Both the position numbers and the translations under genes were made by a program. Below are positions 37,472 through 64,000 of a DNA stretch of 64,000 bases, piece after piece (positions within the stretch are counted from its first letter, which is position 1; the number at the start of each line of letters is the position of its first letter). This DNA comes from a virus. Lineage: Duplodnaviria; Caudoviricetes. Where the stretch lies: IMG/VR virus record IMGVR_UViG_3300033073_000489, positions 18,781-82,780 of that record; one strand, given 5' to 3'. Under the pieces are notes generated by a model. It was given only the letters and a program-made list of their open reading frames with translations. It had not been told where the DNA came from and made no database searches.

Positions 37472-37493
37472 AATAGCACCCGAAGGTGCTATT
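37472..37493 (-). terminator. Intrinsic terminator after the TROVE-like gene
   Basis: AATAGCACC-UUCG-GGTGCTATT followed by U tract. Confidence 0.85.
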
Positions 37494-37508: not shown

Positions 37509-38918
37509 TTAGCTAAGGTCGTAGCGTGGGACCATTACAGTCTTAAGCATGATACCTTCTGGAGTGAATTGGTCCAGATCAGCGGACAGCAAAGCTGTCA
37601 TGATGCTTGGGCTAAATCCGCTAACTAGAGCGGCTCCAGACTTGTCTGACTTAACAGGAACGTTACCGCTACTGTTCAAGTTCCAGAACACAACTTGTGG
37701 TGCGGTATAACCCGCATCAGCATACTTGCGTTCGATCATTTCCATTGCGCTGTCGTCGAAACGAGCGCATTGGTTGAACTGCATGTCTGACAAGATTAGC
37801 AACATCTTTGGCATGTCGCTAGCTGGGACGTTACCCTTAACTGCAACGCTTAGGATCTTGTCCATAGCGGCATGCAAGTTAGTGCTCATTTCCCAGTTGC
37901 TGGTCGACATTTGTTCGACCTTTTGAACAATGTTACCCTTTAGAGTAACAAGTTGTGGCTTGCTAGAGAAAGTCAAGAATGTGTCCTTGAACACGCCCTT
38001 GTTCTTGTCTGCAAGATACAAACCTAGTCCAACCGCTACATCCAAACAACGAACAGTCGAACCTGGAACAGATGTTGTCATCGAACCAGATACGTCAACT
38101 AGAGGCAGGATACTTGCGTCACCTACGTAGTTAGGCAGAGCGTCCCATTGTGCGATCACATGGTCTGTTTCTGTCTTGTTCAGCTTGGTGTAGCTGTGTG
38201 CAATGCCCTTCAACACATCATGTGGGTAGATTGCTGAGGCGTTAACCTTAACAGTCTTATCACCACTTGTCAACTTGGCCACATACTCTGCGAACGCAGG
38301 TGTGTGACGGTTGAATGCCTTCTTGTAGTTGCGAGCAGCCACAGAAGGAACGTGTGAGAAGTTGATGTTATCCCAGTCGTTGGCACACATTTGTGTTTCA
38401 ACAACCTTGGTAAGTGCCACAAGGCTCTTACGATATTGCTTTGGAGTCATTCCAAAGAACGCACGGATTTCCTGTGCGATTTGACCCTTACGAGGAGTCC
38501 ACTTTGCAGCCAAGCCATTACGAGCACGAAGTGCATCGCCTAGCATAGTGTAAGCGGCGCTCTTAAGAGCAGGAGTAGAGAAGACAAAGATGTCGTCCCA
38601 ACGTCCCACTTCAGGCGCCTTCTTTAGCAAAGCCAAAGCGGCGTCTGGGTCACGCTTTTCCAAGTGAACAAGAATGTCACGGAAAAGTTGACGTTCACCC
38701 GCACCACCACGGACATCACGTGCCCATTGTGCGATGCGTAGAGCAACGTCTTGGTTTTCAACATAAGCGGCTGTAAAGTCGCCTACGATGTTCTTACCAC
38801 GGCTTGCGCCAATGTTGTAAAACAGGTCAACTGTAGCCTTGGCTGTTGACTTACGTGCCTTCATACCGTTAGCGGTGCGGGCTTCTTGATTTGCTACTGC
38901 GTTTACAAATGCGTTCAT
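37509..38918 (-). CDS. DUF2828 / TROVE(Ro60)-like protein with vWA domain
   Basis: RDVRGGAGER, WDD, AAKWTPR, vWA MIDAS DVSGSM, ILSDMQF, VFWNL, VSGFS; Ro60 relationship is inferred. Confidence 0.8.
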   Translation of the reverse strand: MNAFVNAVANQEARTANGMKARKSTAKATVDLFYNIGASRGKNIVGDFTAAYVENQDVALRIAQWARDVRGGAGERQLFRDILVHLEKRDPDAALALLKKAPEVGRWDDIFVFSTPALKSAAYTMLGDALRARNGLAAKWTPRKGQIAQEIRAFFGMTPKQYRKSLVALTKVVETQMCANDWDNINFSHVPSVAARNYKKAFNRHTPAFAEYVAKLTSGDKTVKVNASAIYPHDVLKGIAHSYTKLNKTETDHVIAQWDALPNYVGDASILPLVDVSGSMTTSVPGSTVRCLDVAVGLGLYLADKNKGVFKDTFLTFSSKPQLVTLKGNIVQKVEQMSTSNWEMSTNLHAAMDKILSVAVKGNVPASDMPKMLLILSDMQFNQCARFDDSAMEMIERKYADAGYTAPQVVFWNLNSSGNVPVKSDKSGAALVSGFSPSIMTALLSADLDQFTPEGIMLKTVMVPRYDLS

Positions 38919-38931
38919 TTTAATTACCTTT

Positions 38932-38988
38932 CAGAATGTGTTTTTTTTTCGATATGCTTGAAAATTTAAAGTTGCTGTTAACATTCTA
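38932..38988 (-). ncRNA. CAGCAA-scaffold RNA copy A (5' UTR of TROVE-like gene)
   Basis: AGAAUGU-UAA-CAGCAA...ACAUUCUG directly followed by AAAGG SD and AUG. Confidence 0.7.
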
Positions 38989-38997
38989 TGTTTCTAG

Positions 38998-39236
38998 CAG
39001 GATGAGCGGAACAGTTTTTATTTTCTGGTTGGCCCCATCCCCTGTATATTGGTTCAGTTCCCCAACCCTAGCTGTCCTTGTGTCTGCGACAGCGCATATA
39101 TGTCTTTCCATAAGTCAACAGTTCCATTAGCGTTATGGTTTATACATTTCTGTATTGCCACTACAGCCGTTCCACGGGCCGCCGTCTACTGCATGAACGG
39201 TTTCAGTATAAAGTTAAAGTTGCTGTAATCATCCTA
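38998..39236 (-). ncRNA. CAGCAA-scaffold RNA copy B (long, GGA-rich insert)
   Basis: AGGAUGA-UUA-CAGCAA...UCAUCCUG. Confidence 0.75.
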
Positions 39237-39243
39237 TGATTAA

Positions 39244-39408
39244 CAGGATCGTTGTTGACTGCTTTTATTAGACTCAGGCCATCACTCTGAGCTTGTTGGT
39301 CTATTTCAATAGCAACCTTCAACGTCTCCAGGCGAACCTTTTGACTCCAGCCGACTACCATAGGGTCCAACGATCCATAGTAATATGAATGTTGCTGATA
39401 CGATCCTA
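39244..39408 (-). ncRNA. CAGCAA-scaffold RNA copy C
   Basis: AGGAUCGU-AU-CAGCAA...ACGAUCCUG. Confidence 0.75.
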
Positions 39409-39440
39409 AAACTCTCTGCAAGTTGCCTTGCTATGTGTCT

Positions 39441-39469
39441 ATTATAGTATAGATCAAACTGCTTGTCTA
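39441..39469 (-). promoter_or_regulatory. sigma70-type promoter for copies C, B, A and the TROVE-like gene
   Basis: TAGACA-N17-TATAAT. Confidence 0.7.
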
Positions 39470-39493
39470 GCCTTTTGGCTAAACTGAATAAAA

Positions 39494-39607
39494 CAGGATA
39501 CTATTCTTTGACGAATGCTCTACCTAATGAGCTATTTTTCCCTAGCGGAAAAAGATGGAATCGAACCACCTACCTATCGTTTGGATAGTTTTGCTGTGAG
39601 TATCCTA
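39494..39607 (-). ncRNA. CAGCAA-scaffold RNA copy D, YrlA-like permuted tRNA mimic
   Basis: AGGAUACU/AGUAUCCU encloses a hairpin, T arm GGUGG-UUCGAUU-CCAUC, loop-closed acceptor stem UUUUUCC/GGAAAAA and D arm GCUC-AUUAGGUA-GAGC. Confidence 0.85.
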
Positions 39608-39610
39608 AAT

Positions 39611-39685
39611 TGGAGGTCAGGGTAGGGGTCAAACCTACCTGTATCCGGTTTGCAATCGGAAGCATAGTCGCTCTGCCACCTGACC
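39611..39685 (-). tRNA. tRNA-Cys(GCA)
   Basis: Cloverleaf, loop UUGCAAA, U73, CCA encoded. Confidence 0.9.
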
Positions 39686-45484: not shown

Positions 45485-45488
45485 AAAA

Positions 45489-45597
45489 CAGGATGATGTA
45501 GTATTGCCGGGAATCGAACCCCAATTTCAACTACGGTCCCCAATTGGACGGCCTGGCAGAACAATGGCGCCAAAAAGTGTTTGCTGGATTCATCCTA
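45489..45597 (-). ncRNA. CAGCAA-scaffold RNA copy E (partial tRNA-like insert)
   Basis: AGGAUGA-AUC-CAGCAA...UCAUCCUG; insert has GGG-UUCGAUU-CCC. Confidence 0.75.
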
Positions 45598-45601
45598 AAC
45601 T

Positions 45602-46018: not shown

Positions 46019-46109
46019 ATAATAAAAACGCACTCGTCACTTTTCACGACGGTGGTGTGCAGTCCTTACAACCTAACTTATAGCTAGGTCAAGTGCGTTT
46101 TTATTATGG
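46017..46109 (-). ncRNA. Structured spacer pairing the upstream tRNA CCA with the downstream tRNA 5' GG
   Basis: CCAUAAUAAAAACGCACU / AGUGCGUUUUUAUUAUGG, perfect 18 bp. Confidence 0.7.
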
Positions 46110-46227
46110 CCCCGCCCCGTGGATTCGAACCACGATCTCGTCCTTGACATGGAATTGTGTATTATGCTGACTGTATCCTTAACAGGATAACCTTTTAATA
46201 CGTGTGCTACCATTACACCAAGGCGGG
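46107..46227 (-). tRNA. 121-nt tRNA-like gene with expanded anticodon domain
   Basis: Normal acceptor, D and T arms, G73-CCA; insert carries UAUCC-UGUUAA-GGAUA and UCC-AUGUCAA-GGA. Confidence 0.7.
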
Positions 46228-46589: not shown

Positions 46590-46597
46590 AAATTAAA

Positions 46598-46656
46598 CAG
46601 GATGCATTTACTTTTTTCCGAATAAAAGAAATGTAATGTTTGCTGTTAGCATCCTA
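46598..46656 (-). ncRNA. CAGCAA-scaffold RNA copy F (short)
   Basis: AGGAUGC-UAA-CAGCAA...GCAUCCUG. Confidence 0.75.
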
Positions 46657-46660
46657 AAAC

Positions 46661-47666: not shown

Positions 47667-47674
47667 AAATAAAA

Positions 47675-47738
47675 CAGGATGTATTTTTACGGTTTAGATT
47701 AAAAGTCTAATGTATAAATTTTTGCTGTTAACATCCTA
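47675..47738 (-). ncRNA. CAGCAA-scaffold RNA copy G carrying a Lys(UUU)-type anticodon stem-loop
   Basis: AGGAUGU-UAA-CAGCAA...UUAGA-CUUUUAA-UCUAA...ACAUCCUG. Confidence 0.8.
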
Positions 47739-47743
47739 AAACT

Positions 47744-48236: not shown

Positions 48237-48247
48237 ACAGATTAAAA

Positions 48248-48371
48248 CAGGATAGAATTTAACATAGTGCTACCGTTACACCAAACACCGCCTAAGCGAT
48301 GCCGCGGAGTCGAACCGCTCCCTTACTTTTCAAGAGTAGTAGTTGTTATTAATTTTGCTGTTACTATCCTA
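48248..48371 (-). ncRNA. CAGCAA-scaffold RNA copy H, YrlA-like permuted tRNA mimic
   Basis: AGGAUAG/CUAUCCU encloses UACU-CUUGAAA-AGUA, T arm GCGG-UUCGACU-CCGC, closed acceptor GGCAUCGC-UUAG-GCGGUGUU and D arm GUG-UAACGGUAG-CAC. Confidence 0.85.
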
Positions 48372-48382
48372 AAACTTCTTTG

Positions 48383-63764: not shown

Positions 63765-63982
63765 TGCTATTTTGGGTGACAAGGTATAACTACCTCGCAA
63801 GTGCAGTTTCTTAGGCTGCTAGTTCGAAACGCTCAGCGTTTGCAGCCTTAGCTACGAATGCTGGCACTTCGAAGTGCTTGAATGTAGATGCTGTTGCATT
63901 TACTAGTTTTGCTTGATTTACGGTCATCGCCTACCGTGTTGCCGTCTTCAATATCTACCCCTGTCGAAACCATGGCAGGCCC
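63765..63982 (-). ncRNA. ssrA: tmRNA, 5'/coding piece (probably permuted two-piece gene)
   Basis: 5' GGGCCUGCCAUGGUUUCGACAGGG; UAAAU before resume GCA; tag ORF 63897-63811 ATASTFKHFEVPAFVAKAANAERFELAA. Confidence 0.85.
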
Positions 63983-64000
63983 ATTATAAAACACACTAGA

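What the first reader, a model, noticed from the sequence alone, without database searches (positions are those of the whole stretch)
38916..38988. Scaffold copy placed on the ribosome-binding site of the TROVE-like gene (autoregulation)
Seen: copy A ends ACAUUCUG-AAAGG-UAAUUAAA-AUG, so its stem abuts the SD. It is the only copy with AGAAU/AUUCU, a compensatory change. Inference: the protein binds its own leader as a translational operator and is titrated by the other seven copies.
Basis: partly seen in the sequence, partly recalled or inferred. Interest (0 to 1): 0.7.

Follow-up and report, generated by a model that had tools for sequence, protein, structure and literature searches.

The report
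Partner-RNA handle on Ro60-like gene's RBS
The messenger of a phage's Ro60-shaped RNA-binding protein carries, right against its ribosome-binding site, a stripped-down copy of the "handle" shared by the phage's own small RNAs; very distant phages keep this layout, so the protein probably binds its own messenger and limits its own synthesis, though binding has not been tested.

Summary
On the minus strand, U38988 to G38932 form an 8-pair stem (UAGAAUGU / ACAUUCUG) followed on its 5' side by UAACAGCAA. The last G of the stem is the first base of the Shine-Dalgarno GAAAGG, 8 nt before the ATG at 38918. It is one of eight copies, and the only one with AGAAU/AUUCU.

A covariance model built without any window sequence finds it at E 8.5e-5. 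The gene (DUF2828 + DUF7788) folds like Ro60.

Nearly all 80 close relatives keep the copy, with 100% pairing and 5 of 8 pairs showing double changes. So do 55 of 69 diverse sources (45-78% protein identity), Aeromonas phage 4_4572 and Synechococcus phage BUCT-ZZ01. Campylobacter CP30A shows one by eye, and Xanthomonas XaC1 has a minimal hairpin there.

Leader copies form a distinct subclass: short, without cargo, and with a different core.

Binding, repression and titration remain inferred. The main rival is a co-transcribed partner RNA with no regulatory role. Herelleviridae, Felix O1, Klebsiella KP13-16, Aeh1 and a mycobacteriophage lack an SD-adjacent copy.

This scan reached the same reading on four other genomes. 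I file it as a new variant of target-mimicry autoregulation, with confidence about 0.55.

The parts
38932..38988 (-). Leader copy ('copy A') of the handle RNA: 5' strand U38988-U38981, UAACAGCAAC 38980-38971, A/U-rich loop with an A-tract, 3' strand A38939-G38932
   Evidence: Sequence. Independent model R2: 29.4 bits, E 8.5e-5. Covariation in 49 close relatives and in 41 diverse copies.
38927..38932 (-). Shine-Dalgarno GAAAGG; its first G is the G of the closing U-G pair of the handle
   Evidence: Sequence. AGG is conserved in the relatives, and the junction between handle and SD varies by only 0-1 nt in the close relatives.
38916..38918 (-). ATG start codon of the Ro60-like gene
   Evidence: ORF list. 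The N-terminus MNAFVNAV is matched from residue 1 in the relatives.
37509..38918 (-). 469-aa gene, Pfam DUF2828 + DUF7788 (vWA-like), PHROG 850 'RNA-binding protein', predicted Ro60/TROVE fold
   Evidence: AlphaFold2 pLDDT 91.7. The top 12 Foldseek PDB matches are all Ro60/TROVE, E 7e-8 to 2e-5, TM up to 0.66.
39441..39469 (-). Sigma-70-like promoter TAGACA-17-TATAAT; it would start a transcript holding copies 39407, 39235, copy A and the gene
   Evidence: 11 of 12 matches. The hexamers recur at -290 to -590 in 35 of 50 distinct close relatives, with varying spacer sequence.
37472..37493 (-). Intrinsic-terminator-like hairpin plus T-run, 15 nt after the stop codon
38998..39236 (-). Handle RNA copy with a long insert (AGGAUGA / UCAUCCU)
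   Evidence: partial model match.
39244..39408 (-). Handle RNA copy with a long insert (AGGAUCGU / ACGAUCCU)
39492..39610 (-). Handle RNA copy carrying a permuted tRNA-like module; weak YrlA match
   Evidence: Rfam RF02553, 31.3 bits, E 1e-4, below the gathering score of 69. R1 22.2 bits. Fold z -3.96.
45487..45600 (-). Free handle RNA copy in the tRNA array (AGGAUGA.. UCCAGCAA ..UCAUCCUG)
46596..46659 (-). Free short handle RNA between tRNA-His and tRNA-Arg (AGGAUGC / GCAUCCU)
   Evidence: RF01414 26.3 bits.
47673..47741 (-). Free short handle RNA after tRNA-Thr (AGGAUGU / ACAUCCU), with an anticodon-arm-like tip
48246..48374 (-). Free handle RNA with a tRNA-like insert (AGGAUAG / CUAUCCU)

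Best explanation
Copy A is a cis-acting, cargo-less copy of the handle that marks this phage's Y-RNA-like small RNAs. The handle is a short terminal helix (U-G, A-U, G-C, N-N, N-N, U-A, N-N, N-N) followed by unpaired (U/A)(U/A)CAGCAA. Copy A lies in the 5' untranslated region of the Ro60-fold DUF2828 gene, with its 3' strand ending on the first base of the Shine-Dalgarno sequence.

Proposed mechanism, by step:
- Inferred: the protein recognises the handle on its free partner RNAs.
- Inferred: once protein exceeds free partner RNA, it binds the same handle on its own messenger. There a roughly 52-kDa ring sitting at -15 to -23 from the start codon lies inside the usual footprint of the 30S subunit and blocks initiation.
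- Inferred consequence: this keeps protein matched to partner RNA, as in autogenous control of ribosomal proteins.

Shown here: the element, its family membership, its position, its conservation with covariation, and its distinctness from the other copies.

Inferred only: binding, repression and titration.
For: (1) The position is exact: the handle's last G is the first G of GAAAGG.

(2) Nearly all 80 close relatives keep the copy. In 49 distinct leaders, 100% of cells pair and 5 of 8 pairs show double changes: AGAAUGU/ACAUUCU, AGAAUGC/GCAUUCU, UGAAUGC/GCAUUCA, AGGUUAU/AUAACCU. The junction between handle and SD changes by only 0-1 nt, while the spacer between SD and AUG diverges freely.

(3) Among 69 diverse sources, whose proteins are 45-78% identical to the window protein, model R1 gives 141 matches. 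All are on the gene's strand. In 55 sources a match ends 7-22 nt before the ATG, and the SD starts 0 to about 14 nt after the handle. In four lineages the handle's G is part of GGAG itself.

(4) Cultured phages show the same layout:
- Aeromonas 4_4572 (40% identity): its fifth tandem copy ends ACAUUCUGAAAGGAG, then ATG.
- Xanthomonas XaC1: AGAAGU-GAACAGCAU..AUUUCU-GAAGGA.
- Erwinia pEa_SNUABM_19: the same stem, then GAGGA.
- Campylobacter CP30A: copy seen by eye, ending 21 nt before the ATG.
- Synechococcus BUCT-ZZ01: AGAAUUG..CAAUUCUG, 11 nt before GGAG.
- Three KVP40-like Vibrio phages: ACAGCAA in the leader.

(5) Leader copies are a distinct subclass:
- 50 of 55 are 75 nt or shorter, and 3 of 55 exceed 90 nt; among the other copies 41 of 86 exceed 90 nt (Fisher 3e-8).
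- A T-arm motif occurs in 1 of 55 against 19 of 86.
- Core position 4 is A/U in 11/42 against 51/21 (3e-8).
- The leader core differs from every other copy of the same locus in 33 of 40 loci.

(6) 85 tRNA genes lie upstream of the gene in 60 loci, yet none sits directly before it; that place is taken by a handle copy in most of them.

(7) Several lineages have a promoter directly before the leader copy (L097, L105, L122), so there it is the messenger's 5' end.

(8) A 134-base contig from an RNA library spans 38859-38988, that is the start of the ORF plus all of copy A. This is weak evidence.

(9) The protein has the Ro60 fold. Ro60 proteins bind a helix of Y RNAs that are encoded beside their genes (PMC4201824, PMC12135203).
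Against: - No binding, footprint, reporter or RNA-end data exist for any member.
- Elements in these arrays lie 2-14 nt apart anyway, so part of the adjacency could be compaction.
- Three leader copies are long, and one (L089) carries a T-arm-like insert, so a leader copy can also be a real partner RNA.
- The complete relatives G003 and G002 give only 2-3 model matches. The leader copy may therefore be a main ligand and not a mimic.
- Listeria, Bacillus and Enterococcus phages keep their copies 73 nt or more away, or behind a terminator and a promoter. Felix O1, Klebsiella KP13-16, Staphylococcus S-CoN_Ph8, Aeh1 and mycobacteriophage Snenia show no SD-adjacent copy.
- The stem alone is too weak to hinder a ribosome.
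- The statistics are not corrected for shared ancestry.
Confidence: 0.55

Rival explanations
1. Copy A is simply the last partner small RNA of a polycistronic precursor (small RNAs followed by the protein gene). It is excised like the others and has no effect on translation. It abuts the SD only because the array is compact.
For: - Y RNAs encoded upstream of the Ro60 gene and processed from one precursor are the known layout in M. smegmatis and D. radiodurans (PMC4201824) and in Thermus phage phiLo (PMC12135203).
- Spacers between copies are as short as the spacer to the SD.
- Some leader copies carry cargo (L088, L089, L091).
- Complete relatives give few model matches, the leader copy being the best-scoring one.
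- Copy A closely resembles the free short copies at 47737 and 46655.
Against: - Leader copies are systematically shorter, cargo-less and different in core from the other copies of the same locus.
- Minimal leader copies of 32-41 nt (L105, L104, L115, XaC1) have little besides the handle.
- No locus with an SD-adjacent copy has a terminator between the copy and the gene.
- Where the handle's G is part of GGAG, excision would have to cut inside or at the SD.
- A tRNA never takes this position, although 85 tRNAs lie upstream in 60 loci.
Confidence: 0.27
2. The leader hairpin is a messenger stability or processing element. It acts as a 5' stem-loop that protects the messenger, or as the boundary at which RNase E or RNase P-type cleavage creates the mature 5' end, whether or not the protein binds it.
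For: - In lineages with a promoter just upstream (L097, L105, L122, L124-L129), the handle would sit at the very 5' end of the transcript.
- Free copies are flanked directly by tRNAs, so their ends are probably made by tRNA-processing enzymes.
- M. smegmatis YrlA is an RNase P substrate (PMC4201824).
Against: - The helix is weak, about -4 kcal/mol, which is poor for a protective 5' hairpin.
- A stability element does not need the invariant unpaired CAGCA motif, nor the invariant G-C and U-A pairs shared with the free small RNAs.
- In this window the copy lies about 500 nt inside the predicted transcript, not at its 5' end.
Confidence: 0.1
3. Copy A is a decaying, functionless duplicate of a handle RNA, or a chance match.
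For: It departs from the AGGAU consensus and has the lowest stability of the short copies.
Against: - The independent model gives E 8.5e-5.
- Pairing is perfect with compensatory changes in 49 relatives.
- The copy is kept at the same place in sources whose proteins are only 40-78% identical.
Confidence: 0.02

Closest known systems
Autogenous translational control by target mimicry: E. coli ribosomal proteins (S8, L1, S15, L20, S4), threonyl-tRNA synthetase operator, phage T4 RegA and gp32, MS2 coat protein (established knowledge, not tested here)
   Same: A copy of the protein's presumed primary RNA ligand lies at the ribosome-binding site of the protein's own messenger. The copy is a reduced version of the ligand. 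Free ligand would compete with the messenger for the protein.
   Different: The protein is a Ro60-fold ring, for which I found no report of autoregulation. The ligands are Y-RNA-like small RNAs processed from tRNA operons. Neither binding nor repression has been shown.
Ro60/Rsr with Y RNAs encoded upstream of the gene: M. smegmatis YrlA/YrlB, D. radiodurans Yrn RNAs (PMC4201824), Thermus phage phiLo Yrl1/Yrl2 (PMC12135203)
   Same: A Ro60-fold protein gene is preceded on the same strand by several small structured RNAs closed by a terminal helix. At least one of them carries a tRNA-like module (39492-39610, weak RF02553 match).
   Different: - The protein matches DUF2828/DUF7788, not Pfam TROVE.
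- The handle has an unpaired CAGCAA where YrlA has a second helix.
- No copy reaches the RF02553 gathering score.
- A conserved cargo-less copy on the SD is not described for those loci.
Class I RNAs of dictyostelid social amoebae (Rfam RF01414; Kjellin et al. 2021, PMC7919456)
   Same: Both are about 55-65 nt, with a short helix joining the 5' and 3' ends that covaries. Both have a conserved motif containing UACAGCAA next to the 5' strand, a variable interior, an A-rich stretch before the 3' strand, and conserved ends (..AG at the start, CUG(U) at the end). RF01414 is the only Rfam family apart from tRNA and tmRNA families and a tRNA-antisense plastid family that recurs on these copies: 21.4, 26.3, 26.6, 28.0, 34.7 and 35.7 bits.
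   Different: All scores lie below the gathering score of 41.5. Class I RNAs are reported only from Dictyostelia, have their own upstream promoter element, and their known direct binder is an RRM protein. No link to a DUF2828 protein is known there, and I could not test for one.

Membership tests
Autoregulatory operator by ligand mimicry | The cis-element resembles the protein's primary RNA ligand | tested here: met
   Copy A scores 29.4 bits, E 8.5e-5, with a model built only from copies in other contigs. The same model finds the free copies of the window. That these RNAs are the protein's ligands is itself inferred.
Autoregulatory operator by ligand mimicry | The element overlaps or abuts the ribosome-binding site of the protein's own messenger | tested here: met
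   G38932 belongs both to the handle and to GAAAGG. In 55 of 69 diverse sources a model match ends 7-22 nt before the ATG.
Autoregulatory operator by ligand mimicry | The protein binds the element | not testable with these tools
   No tool here models protein-RNA binding. This needs a gel-shift, filter-binding or CLIP experiment.
Autoregulatory operator by ligand mimicry | Binding lowers translation, and free ligand relieves it | not testable with these tools
   This needs reporter fusions and toeprinting.
Y RNA / YrlA (Rfam RF02553) | Reaches the family's gathering score (69 bits) | tested here: not met
   Copy A gives no RF02553 match. The copy at 39492-39610 reaches 31.3 bits.
Y RNA / YrlA (Rfam RF02553) | Encoded beside a Ro60 orthologue and closed by a terminal helix | tested here: met
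   The gene has the Ro60 fold. The terminal helix is supported by covariation.
Y RNA / YrlA (Rfam RF02553) | tRNA-like domain (T arm and D arm) | tested here: not met
   Copy A has no such module. It is present in the copies at 39492-39610 and 48246-48374.
Dictyostelid Class I RNA (Rfam RF01414) | Reaches the gathering score (41.5 bits) | tested here: not met
   Copy A scores 21.4 bits, E 0.29, in a 901-base search. The best relative scores 35.7 bits.
Dictyostelid Class I RNA (Rfam RF01414) | Short terminal stem with a conserved motif next to its 5' strand, about 42-65 nt in all | tested here: met
   An 8-pair stem, UAACAGCAA directly after it, 57 nt in all. The features are as described in PMC7919456.
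Ro60 / TROVE protein | Matches Pfam TROVE (PF05731) or a solved Ro60 by sequence | tested here: not met
   Pfam gives DUF2828 and DUF7788 only. No Ro60 chain is found by sequence in the PDB.
Ro60 / TROVE protein | Ring of helical repeats plus a vWA domain (the fold) | tested here: met
   The model has pLDDT 91.7. The top 12 Foldseek matches are all Ro60/TROVE, including Thermus phage phiLo and D. radiodurans Rsr, with E 7e-8 to 2e-5; vWA domains follow.

The most novel reading that the evidence does not exclude
The handle (terminal helix plus UACAGCAA, A-tract, CUGU end) is one ancient RNA class that serves as the docking site of DUF2828 Ro60-fold proteins from phages to eukaryotes. On this reading the orphan Class I RNAs of Dictyostelium are partner RNAs of such a protein. 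The cargo-less copy on the gene's own ribosome-binding site would then be a general feedback sensor that sets the ratio of protein to partner RNA.
Probability: 0.2. Interest if true: 0.85.

Novelty: new variant of a known kind. Interest (0 to 1): 0.66.

Why it matters
Ro60 proteins and their Y RNAs are conserved from bacteria to humans, yet how the cell matches protein to RNA is unknown.

Here a whole branch of Ro60-fold proteins keeps a minimal copy of its partner-RNA handle on its own ribosome-binding site. DUF2828 is widespread: 706 phage records and more than 6,000 clusters at 50% identity.

This gives a simple, testable feedback circuit. It also yields a minimal RNA of 32-57 nt that should suffice for binding, which is useful for structural and biochemical work.

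The circuit can be tested in cultured systems. Aeromonas phage 4_4572 has the same ACAUUCUGAAAGG junction. Xanthomonas XaC1 and Campylobacter CP30A are further candidates.

The resemblance of the handle to Dictyostelium Class I RNAs, whose function is open, widens the reach if it proves to be homology.

Tried and rejected
- Folding energy: copy A (-4 kcal/mol, z +0.56) and the leader hairpins of XaC1, the Erwinia phage, L105 and the Vibrio phage do not differ from shuffled sequence. Energy says nothing here, so I relied on covariation.
- Metatranscriptome contigs: they cover the ORF and 38858-39424. Cover is thin at 39425-39667, upstream of the predicted promoter. Contigs cannot show ends, strand or level, and DNA may be present in the libraries, so the thin cover counts for nothing. 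Only the contig bridging copy A and the ORF start is used, as weak evidence. A joint from 38918 to 39240 in one run (side 29) was not pursued.
- Sequence search of the PDB found no Ro60 chain; the fold search was needed.
- The literature search for DUF2828 found nothing relevant.
- Avesson et al. 2011, on the proteins bound to a Class I RNA, is not held in the library. I therefore could not check whether a DUF2828 protein is among them, nor whether Dictyostelium encodes one.
- The search for related loci with P0015 gave a single locus.
- My regex-and-pairing finder mis-called several loci. The covariance models replaced it. Long-insert copies, such as 39244-39408, are missed by the models.
- KVP40-like Vibrio phages: GACAU before ACAGCAA could pair with AUGUC (start codon plus 2 nt). 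It is only 5 pairs, identical in all three phages, so there is no covariation. It stays a lead, not evidence.
- Felix O1 has a different hairpin over its promoter with no CAGCAA motif. I did not count it as a copy.
Full report
**What is there**

On the minus strand the window reads CAU-AGAAUGU-UAACAGCAAC-(31 nt, A/U-rich with an A-tract)-ACAUUCU-G-AAAGG-UAAUUAAA-AUG.
- U38988-U38981 pair with A38939-G38932, 8 pairs with U-G outermost.
- G38932 is also the first base of the Shine-Dalgarno GAAAGG.
- The ATG at 38918 opens a 469-aa ORF (37509-38918).

Seven more copies of the same scaffold lie on the same strand. The scaffold is a terminal helix beginning (U)AGGAU, then (U/A)(U/A)CAGCAA, and a 3' strand ending AUCCUG.
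- Three are in tandem just upstream: 39236-38998, 39408-39244 and 39610-39492.
- Four lie between tRNA genes, at about 45.5, 46.6, 47.7 and 48.3 kb.
- All seven have AGGAU/AUCCU. Only copy A has AGAAU/AUUCU, changed on both sides.

**Is it more than chance?**

The helix is weak on its own, at -4 kcal/mol with z +0.56, so energy gives no support. Two other lines do.
- Covariance model R2 was built from 36 leader copies of other contigs, with no window sequence and no AGAAUGU-type copy. It scores copy A at 29.4 bits, E 8.5e-5, over the whole window on both strands. Its only other reports are the other copies and one chance-level match (13.1 bits, E 0.84).

**The gene**

- Pfam gives DUF2828 (1e-26) and DUF7788 (3e-49), not TROVE.
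- PHROG 850 is named 'RNA-binding protein'.
- No solved structure matches by sequence.
- An AlphaFold2 model built on 66 sequences has pLDDT 91.7.
- Its 12 best Foldseek matches in the PDB are all Ro60/TROVE: Xenopus Ro60 with RNA, human Ro60, Thermus phage phiLo Ro60 and D. radiodurans Rsr, with E 7e-8 to 2e-5 and TM up to 0.66. vWA domains follow.

'TROVE-like' is therefore right for the fold, though not for the Pfam family. The family is large: 6,211 clusters at 50% identity and 706 phage records.

**Transcription unit**

- A sigma-70-like promoter (TAGACA-17-TATAAT, 11 of 12 matches) lies at 39469-39441, between the first and second tandem copies.
- A terminator lies 15 nt after the stop codon, followed by another promoter.
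- The promoter hexamers recur at -290 to -590 in 35 of 50 distinct close relatives, while the spacer sequence varies.
- No promoter or terminator lies between copy A and the ORF.
- One 134-base contig from an RNA library spans 38859-38988, that is the ORF start plus all of copy A. This is weak, because DNA can be present in such libraries.

Yes.

Close relatives:
- 80 IMG/VR relatives (84-95% protein identity) nearly all keep it.
- In 49 distinct leaders the helix pairs in 100% of cells. Five of 8 pairs show changes on both sides, and no single-sided breaks occur: AGAAUGU/ACAUUCU, AGAAUGC/GCAUUCU, UGAAUGC/GCAUUCA, AGGUUAU/AUAACCU.
- 0 of 500 shuffles reach the observed covariation score or percentage paired.
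- None of these leader copies is AGGAU, while their upstream neighbours end ..AUCCUG.
- The junction between handle and SD varies by only 0-1 nt, while the spacer from SD to AUG diverges freely.
- L041 is an exception, with a diverged copy about 50 nt upstream.

Diverse homologues:
- I then sampled loci fetched with a 54%-identical representative. Their proteins are 45-78% identical to the window protein.
- An alignment of 41 short copies shows G-C and U-A pairs that never vary. The other pairs change freely but stay paired: 75 cells with double changes, and 0 of 500 shuffles reach the score.
- Model R1, built from that alignment, gives 141 matches in 69 sources, all on the strand of the gene.
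- In 55 sources a match ends 7-22 nt before the ATG.
- The SD starts 0 to about 14 nt after the handle. In four lineages the handle's last G is the first G of GGAG.

Cultured phages agree:
- Aeromonas phage 4_4572 (40% identity) has five tandem copies, the last ending ACAUUCUGAAAGGAG before the ATG. This is the same junction as in this window.
- Xanthomonas XaC1 and Erwinia pEa_SNUABM_19 have minimal AGAAGU..AUUUCU hairpins ending on GAAGGA and GAGGA.
- Campylobacter CP30A has a copy, seen by eye, ending 21 nt before the ATG.
- Synechococcus BUCT-ZZ01 has AGAAUUG..CAAUUCUG, 11 nt before GGAG.
- Three KVP40-like Vibrio phages keep ACAGCAA in a short leader.

Exceptions:
- Listeria LMTA-57 and Bacillus PBC2 keep their copies 73 nt or more upstream.
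- Enterococcus PEf771 has a terminator and a promoter between the copy and the gene.
- Felix O1, Klebsiella KP13-16, Staphylococcus S-CoN_Ph8, Aeh1 and mycobacteriophage Snenia have none.

**Operator or just the last partner RNA?**

Y RNAs encoded upstream of Ro60 genes and processed from one precursor are the known layout (PMC4201824; PMC12135203). The elements in these arrays are only 2-14 nt apart. Adjacency alone therefore does not prove regulation.

Three observations favour a specialised role.

(a) Leader copies are cargo-less.
- 50 of 55 are 75 nt or shorter, and 3 exceed 90 nt.
- Among the other copies 41 of 86 exceed 90 nt (Fisher 3e-8).
- A T-arm motif occurs in 1 of 55 against 19 of 86.
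- Some leader copies are reduced to 32-41 nt, little more than the handle.

(b) Their core differs.
- Position 4 is A/U in 11/42 leader copies against 51/21 other copies (3e-8).
- The leader core differs from every other copy of its own locus in 33 of 40 loci. This window's AGAAU against AGGAU is one instance of that rule.

(c) The place directly before the gene is not taken by a tRNA.
- 85 tRNA genes lie upstream of the gene in 60 loci, and none sits directly before it.

These statistics are not corrected for shared ancestry.

Against a pure mimic:
- A few leader copies carry cargo (L088, L089, L091).
- Two complete relatives give only 2-3 model matches, the leader copy being the best. 'Titration by seven copies' is therefore not general.

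The two readings are not exclusive. If the protein binds the handle at all, then binding it on an uncut messenger at -15 to -23 lies within the usual reach of the 30S subunit. That step is established knowledge of initiation complexes, not tested here.

**Verdict on mechanism**

- Most likely (about 0.55): translational feedback by binding of the Ro60-like protein to the handle copy on its own SD, in competition with free handle RNAs, as in ribosomal-protein autogenous control.
- Main rival (about 0.27): a co-transcribed partner RNA with no effect on translation.
- Stability or processing element: about 0.10.
- Chance or a decaying copy: excluded in practice.

**Comparison with known systems**

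- It works like target-mimicry operators (ribosomal proteins, ThrRS, T4 RegA and gp32, MS2 coat). I found no report of such control for a Ro60-type protein.
- It is not a member of RF02553. There is no match for copy A, and 31.3 bits against 69 for the tRNA-like copy. The handle also has unpaired CAGCAA where YrlA has a helix.
- Apart from tRNA and tmRNA families and a plastid family that matches the antisense of tRNA genes, the only Rfam family that recurs on the copies is RF01414, the Class I RNAs of Dictyostelium: 21.4 bits on copy A, then 26.3, 26.6, 28.0, 34.7 and 35.7 bits elsewhere, all below 41.5.
- The published features of that class match in kind: 42-65 nt, a short covarying terminal stem, a conserved motif next to its 5' strand, and conserved ends AAG and CUGU. 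The class is reported from no other organism (PMC7919456). Whether this is homology I could not test.

**Earlier notes of this scan**

Other agents reached the same reading, a handle copy in the DUF2828 leader as probable autoregulation, on four other genomes. The Class I resemblance is noted in 20 findings. These are unchecked AI notes. My scores rest on the tests above.

Noticed in passing
window 38930-38991, 46596-46659; L121:641-693, L147:1424-1480, L167:228-290, L137:1425-1478: Short handle RNAs repeatedly give sub-threshold matches to Rfam RF01414 (Dictyostelium Class I RNA; 21-36 bits, gathering score 41.5). They share its build: a short terminal stem, UACAGCAA next to the 5' strand, an A-tract, and a CUG(U) end. 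DUF2828 proteins also occur in eukaryotes (Atlas cluster with 43% Eukaryota).
   Followed up: partly
L082:4075-4320 (Synechococcus phage BUCT-ZZ01, downstream of the DUF2828 gene): Two tRNA-like genes each carry a near-identical insert of about 35 nt (aaacgcattctgtaaagaatgaattctgcaatc) in the anticodon region. The insert contains CAUUCUGUAAAG, which resembles the 3' end of the leader handle.
   Followed up: no
L083:2455-2510, L172 and L173 (KVP40-like Vibrio phages): The short leader after a TTTAC(A/G)-16-TATAAT promoter keeps GACAU-U(A/U)(A/U)ACAGCAA. GACAU could pair with AUGUC (start codon plus 2 nt), enclosing the SD. It is only 5 pairs, with no covariation among the three phages.
   Followed up: partly
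L085:706-783, L097:109-186, L102:4041-4116, L116:3677-3748, L130:1135-1210: ARAGORN calls tRNAs with anticodon CUA ('tRNA-Pyl', amber-suppressor type) near the DUF2828 gene in several related phage contigs. This may point to TAG read-through or recoding in these phages.
   Followed up: no
window 63811-64000 (-); L085:117-545; L137:2860-3258: Permuted (two-piece type) tmRNA genes are encoded by this phage and by relatives. In two relatives they lie within about 1.5 kb of the DUF2828 gene.
   Followed up: no
window 47673-47741 (-); L085, L093, L094, L097 leader copies; L167:223-292: Many short handle RNAs carry a tip that looks like a tRNA anticodon arm: a 5-pair stem with a 7-nt loop, CUUUUAA (Lys-like) or CUUGUAA (Thr-like). 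In some lineages this includes the leader copy itself.
   Followed up: no
L002:2910-3003: One close relative has a tandem duplication: the 3' half of the leader copy plus the first 15 nt of the ORF, followed by a second SD and ATG. It may be a real duplication or an assembly artefact.
   Followed up: no
window 46107-46227 (-): A tRNA-shaped RNA whose anticodon region holds GGUUAUCCUG-UUA-AGGAUACAG-UCAGCAU, a handle-like sequence of the AGGAU type. It is a ninth, embedded occurrence of the motif, also noted by another agent of this scan.
   Followed up: partly
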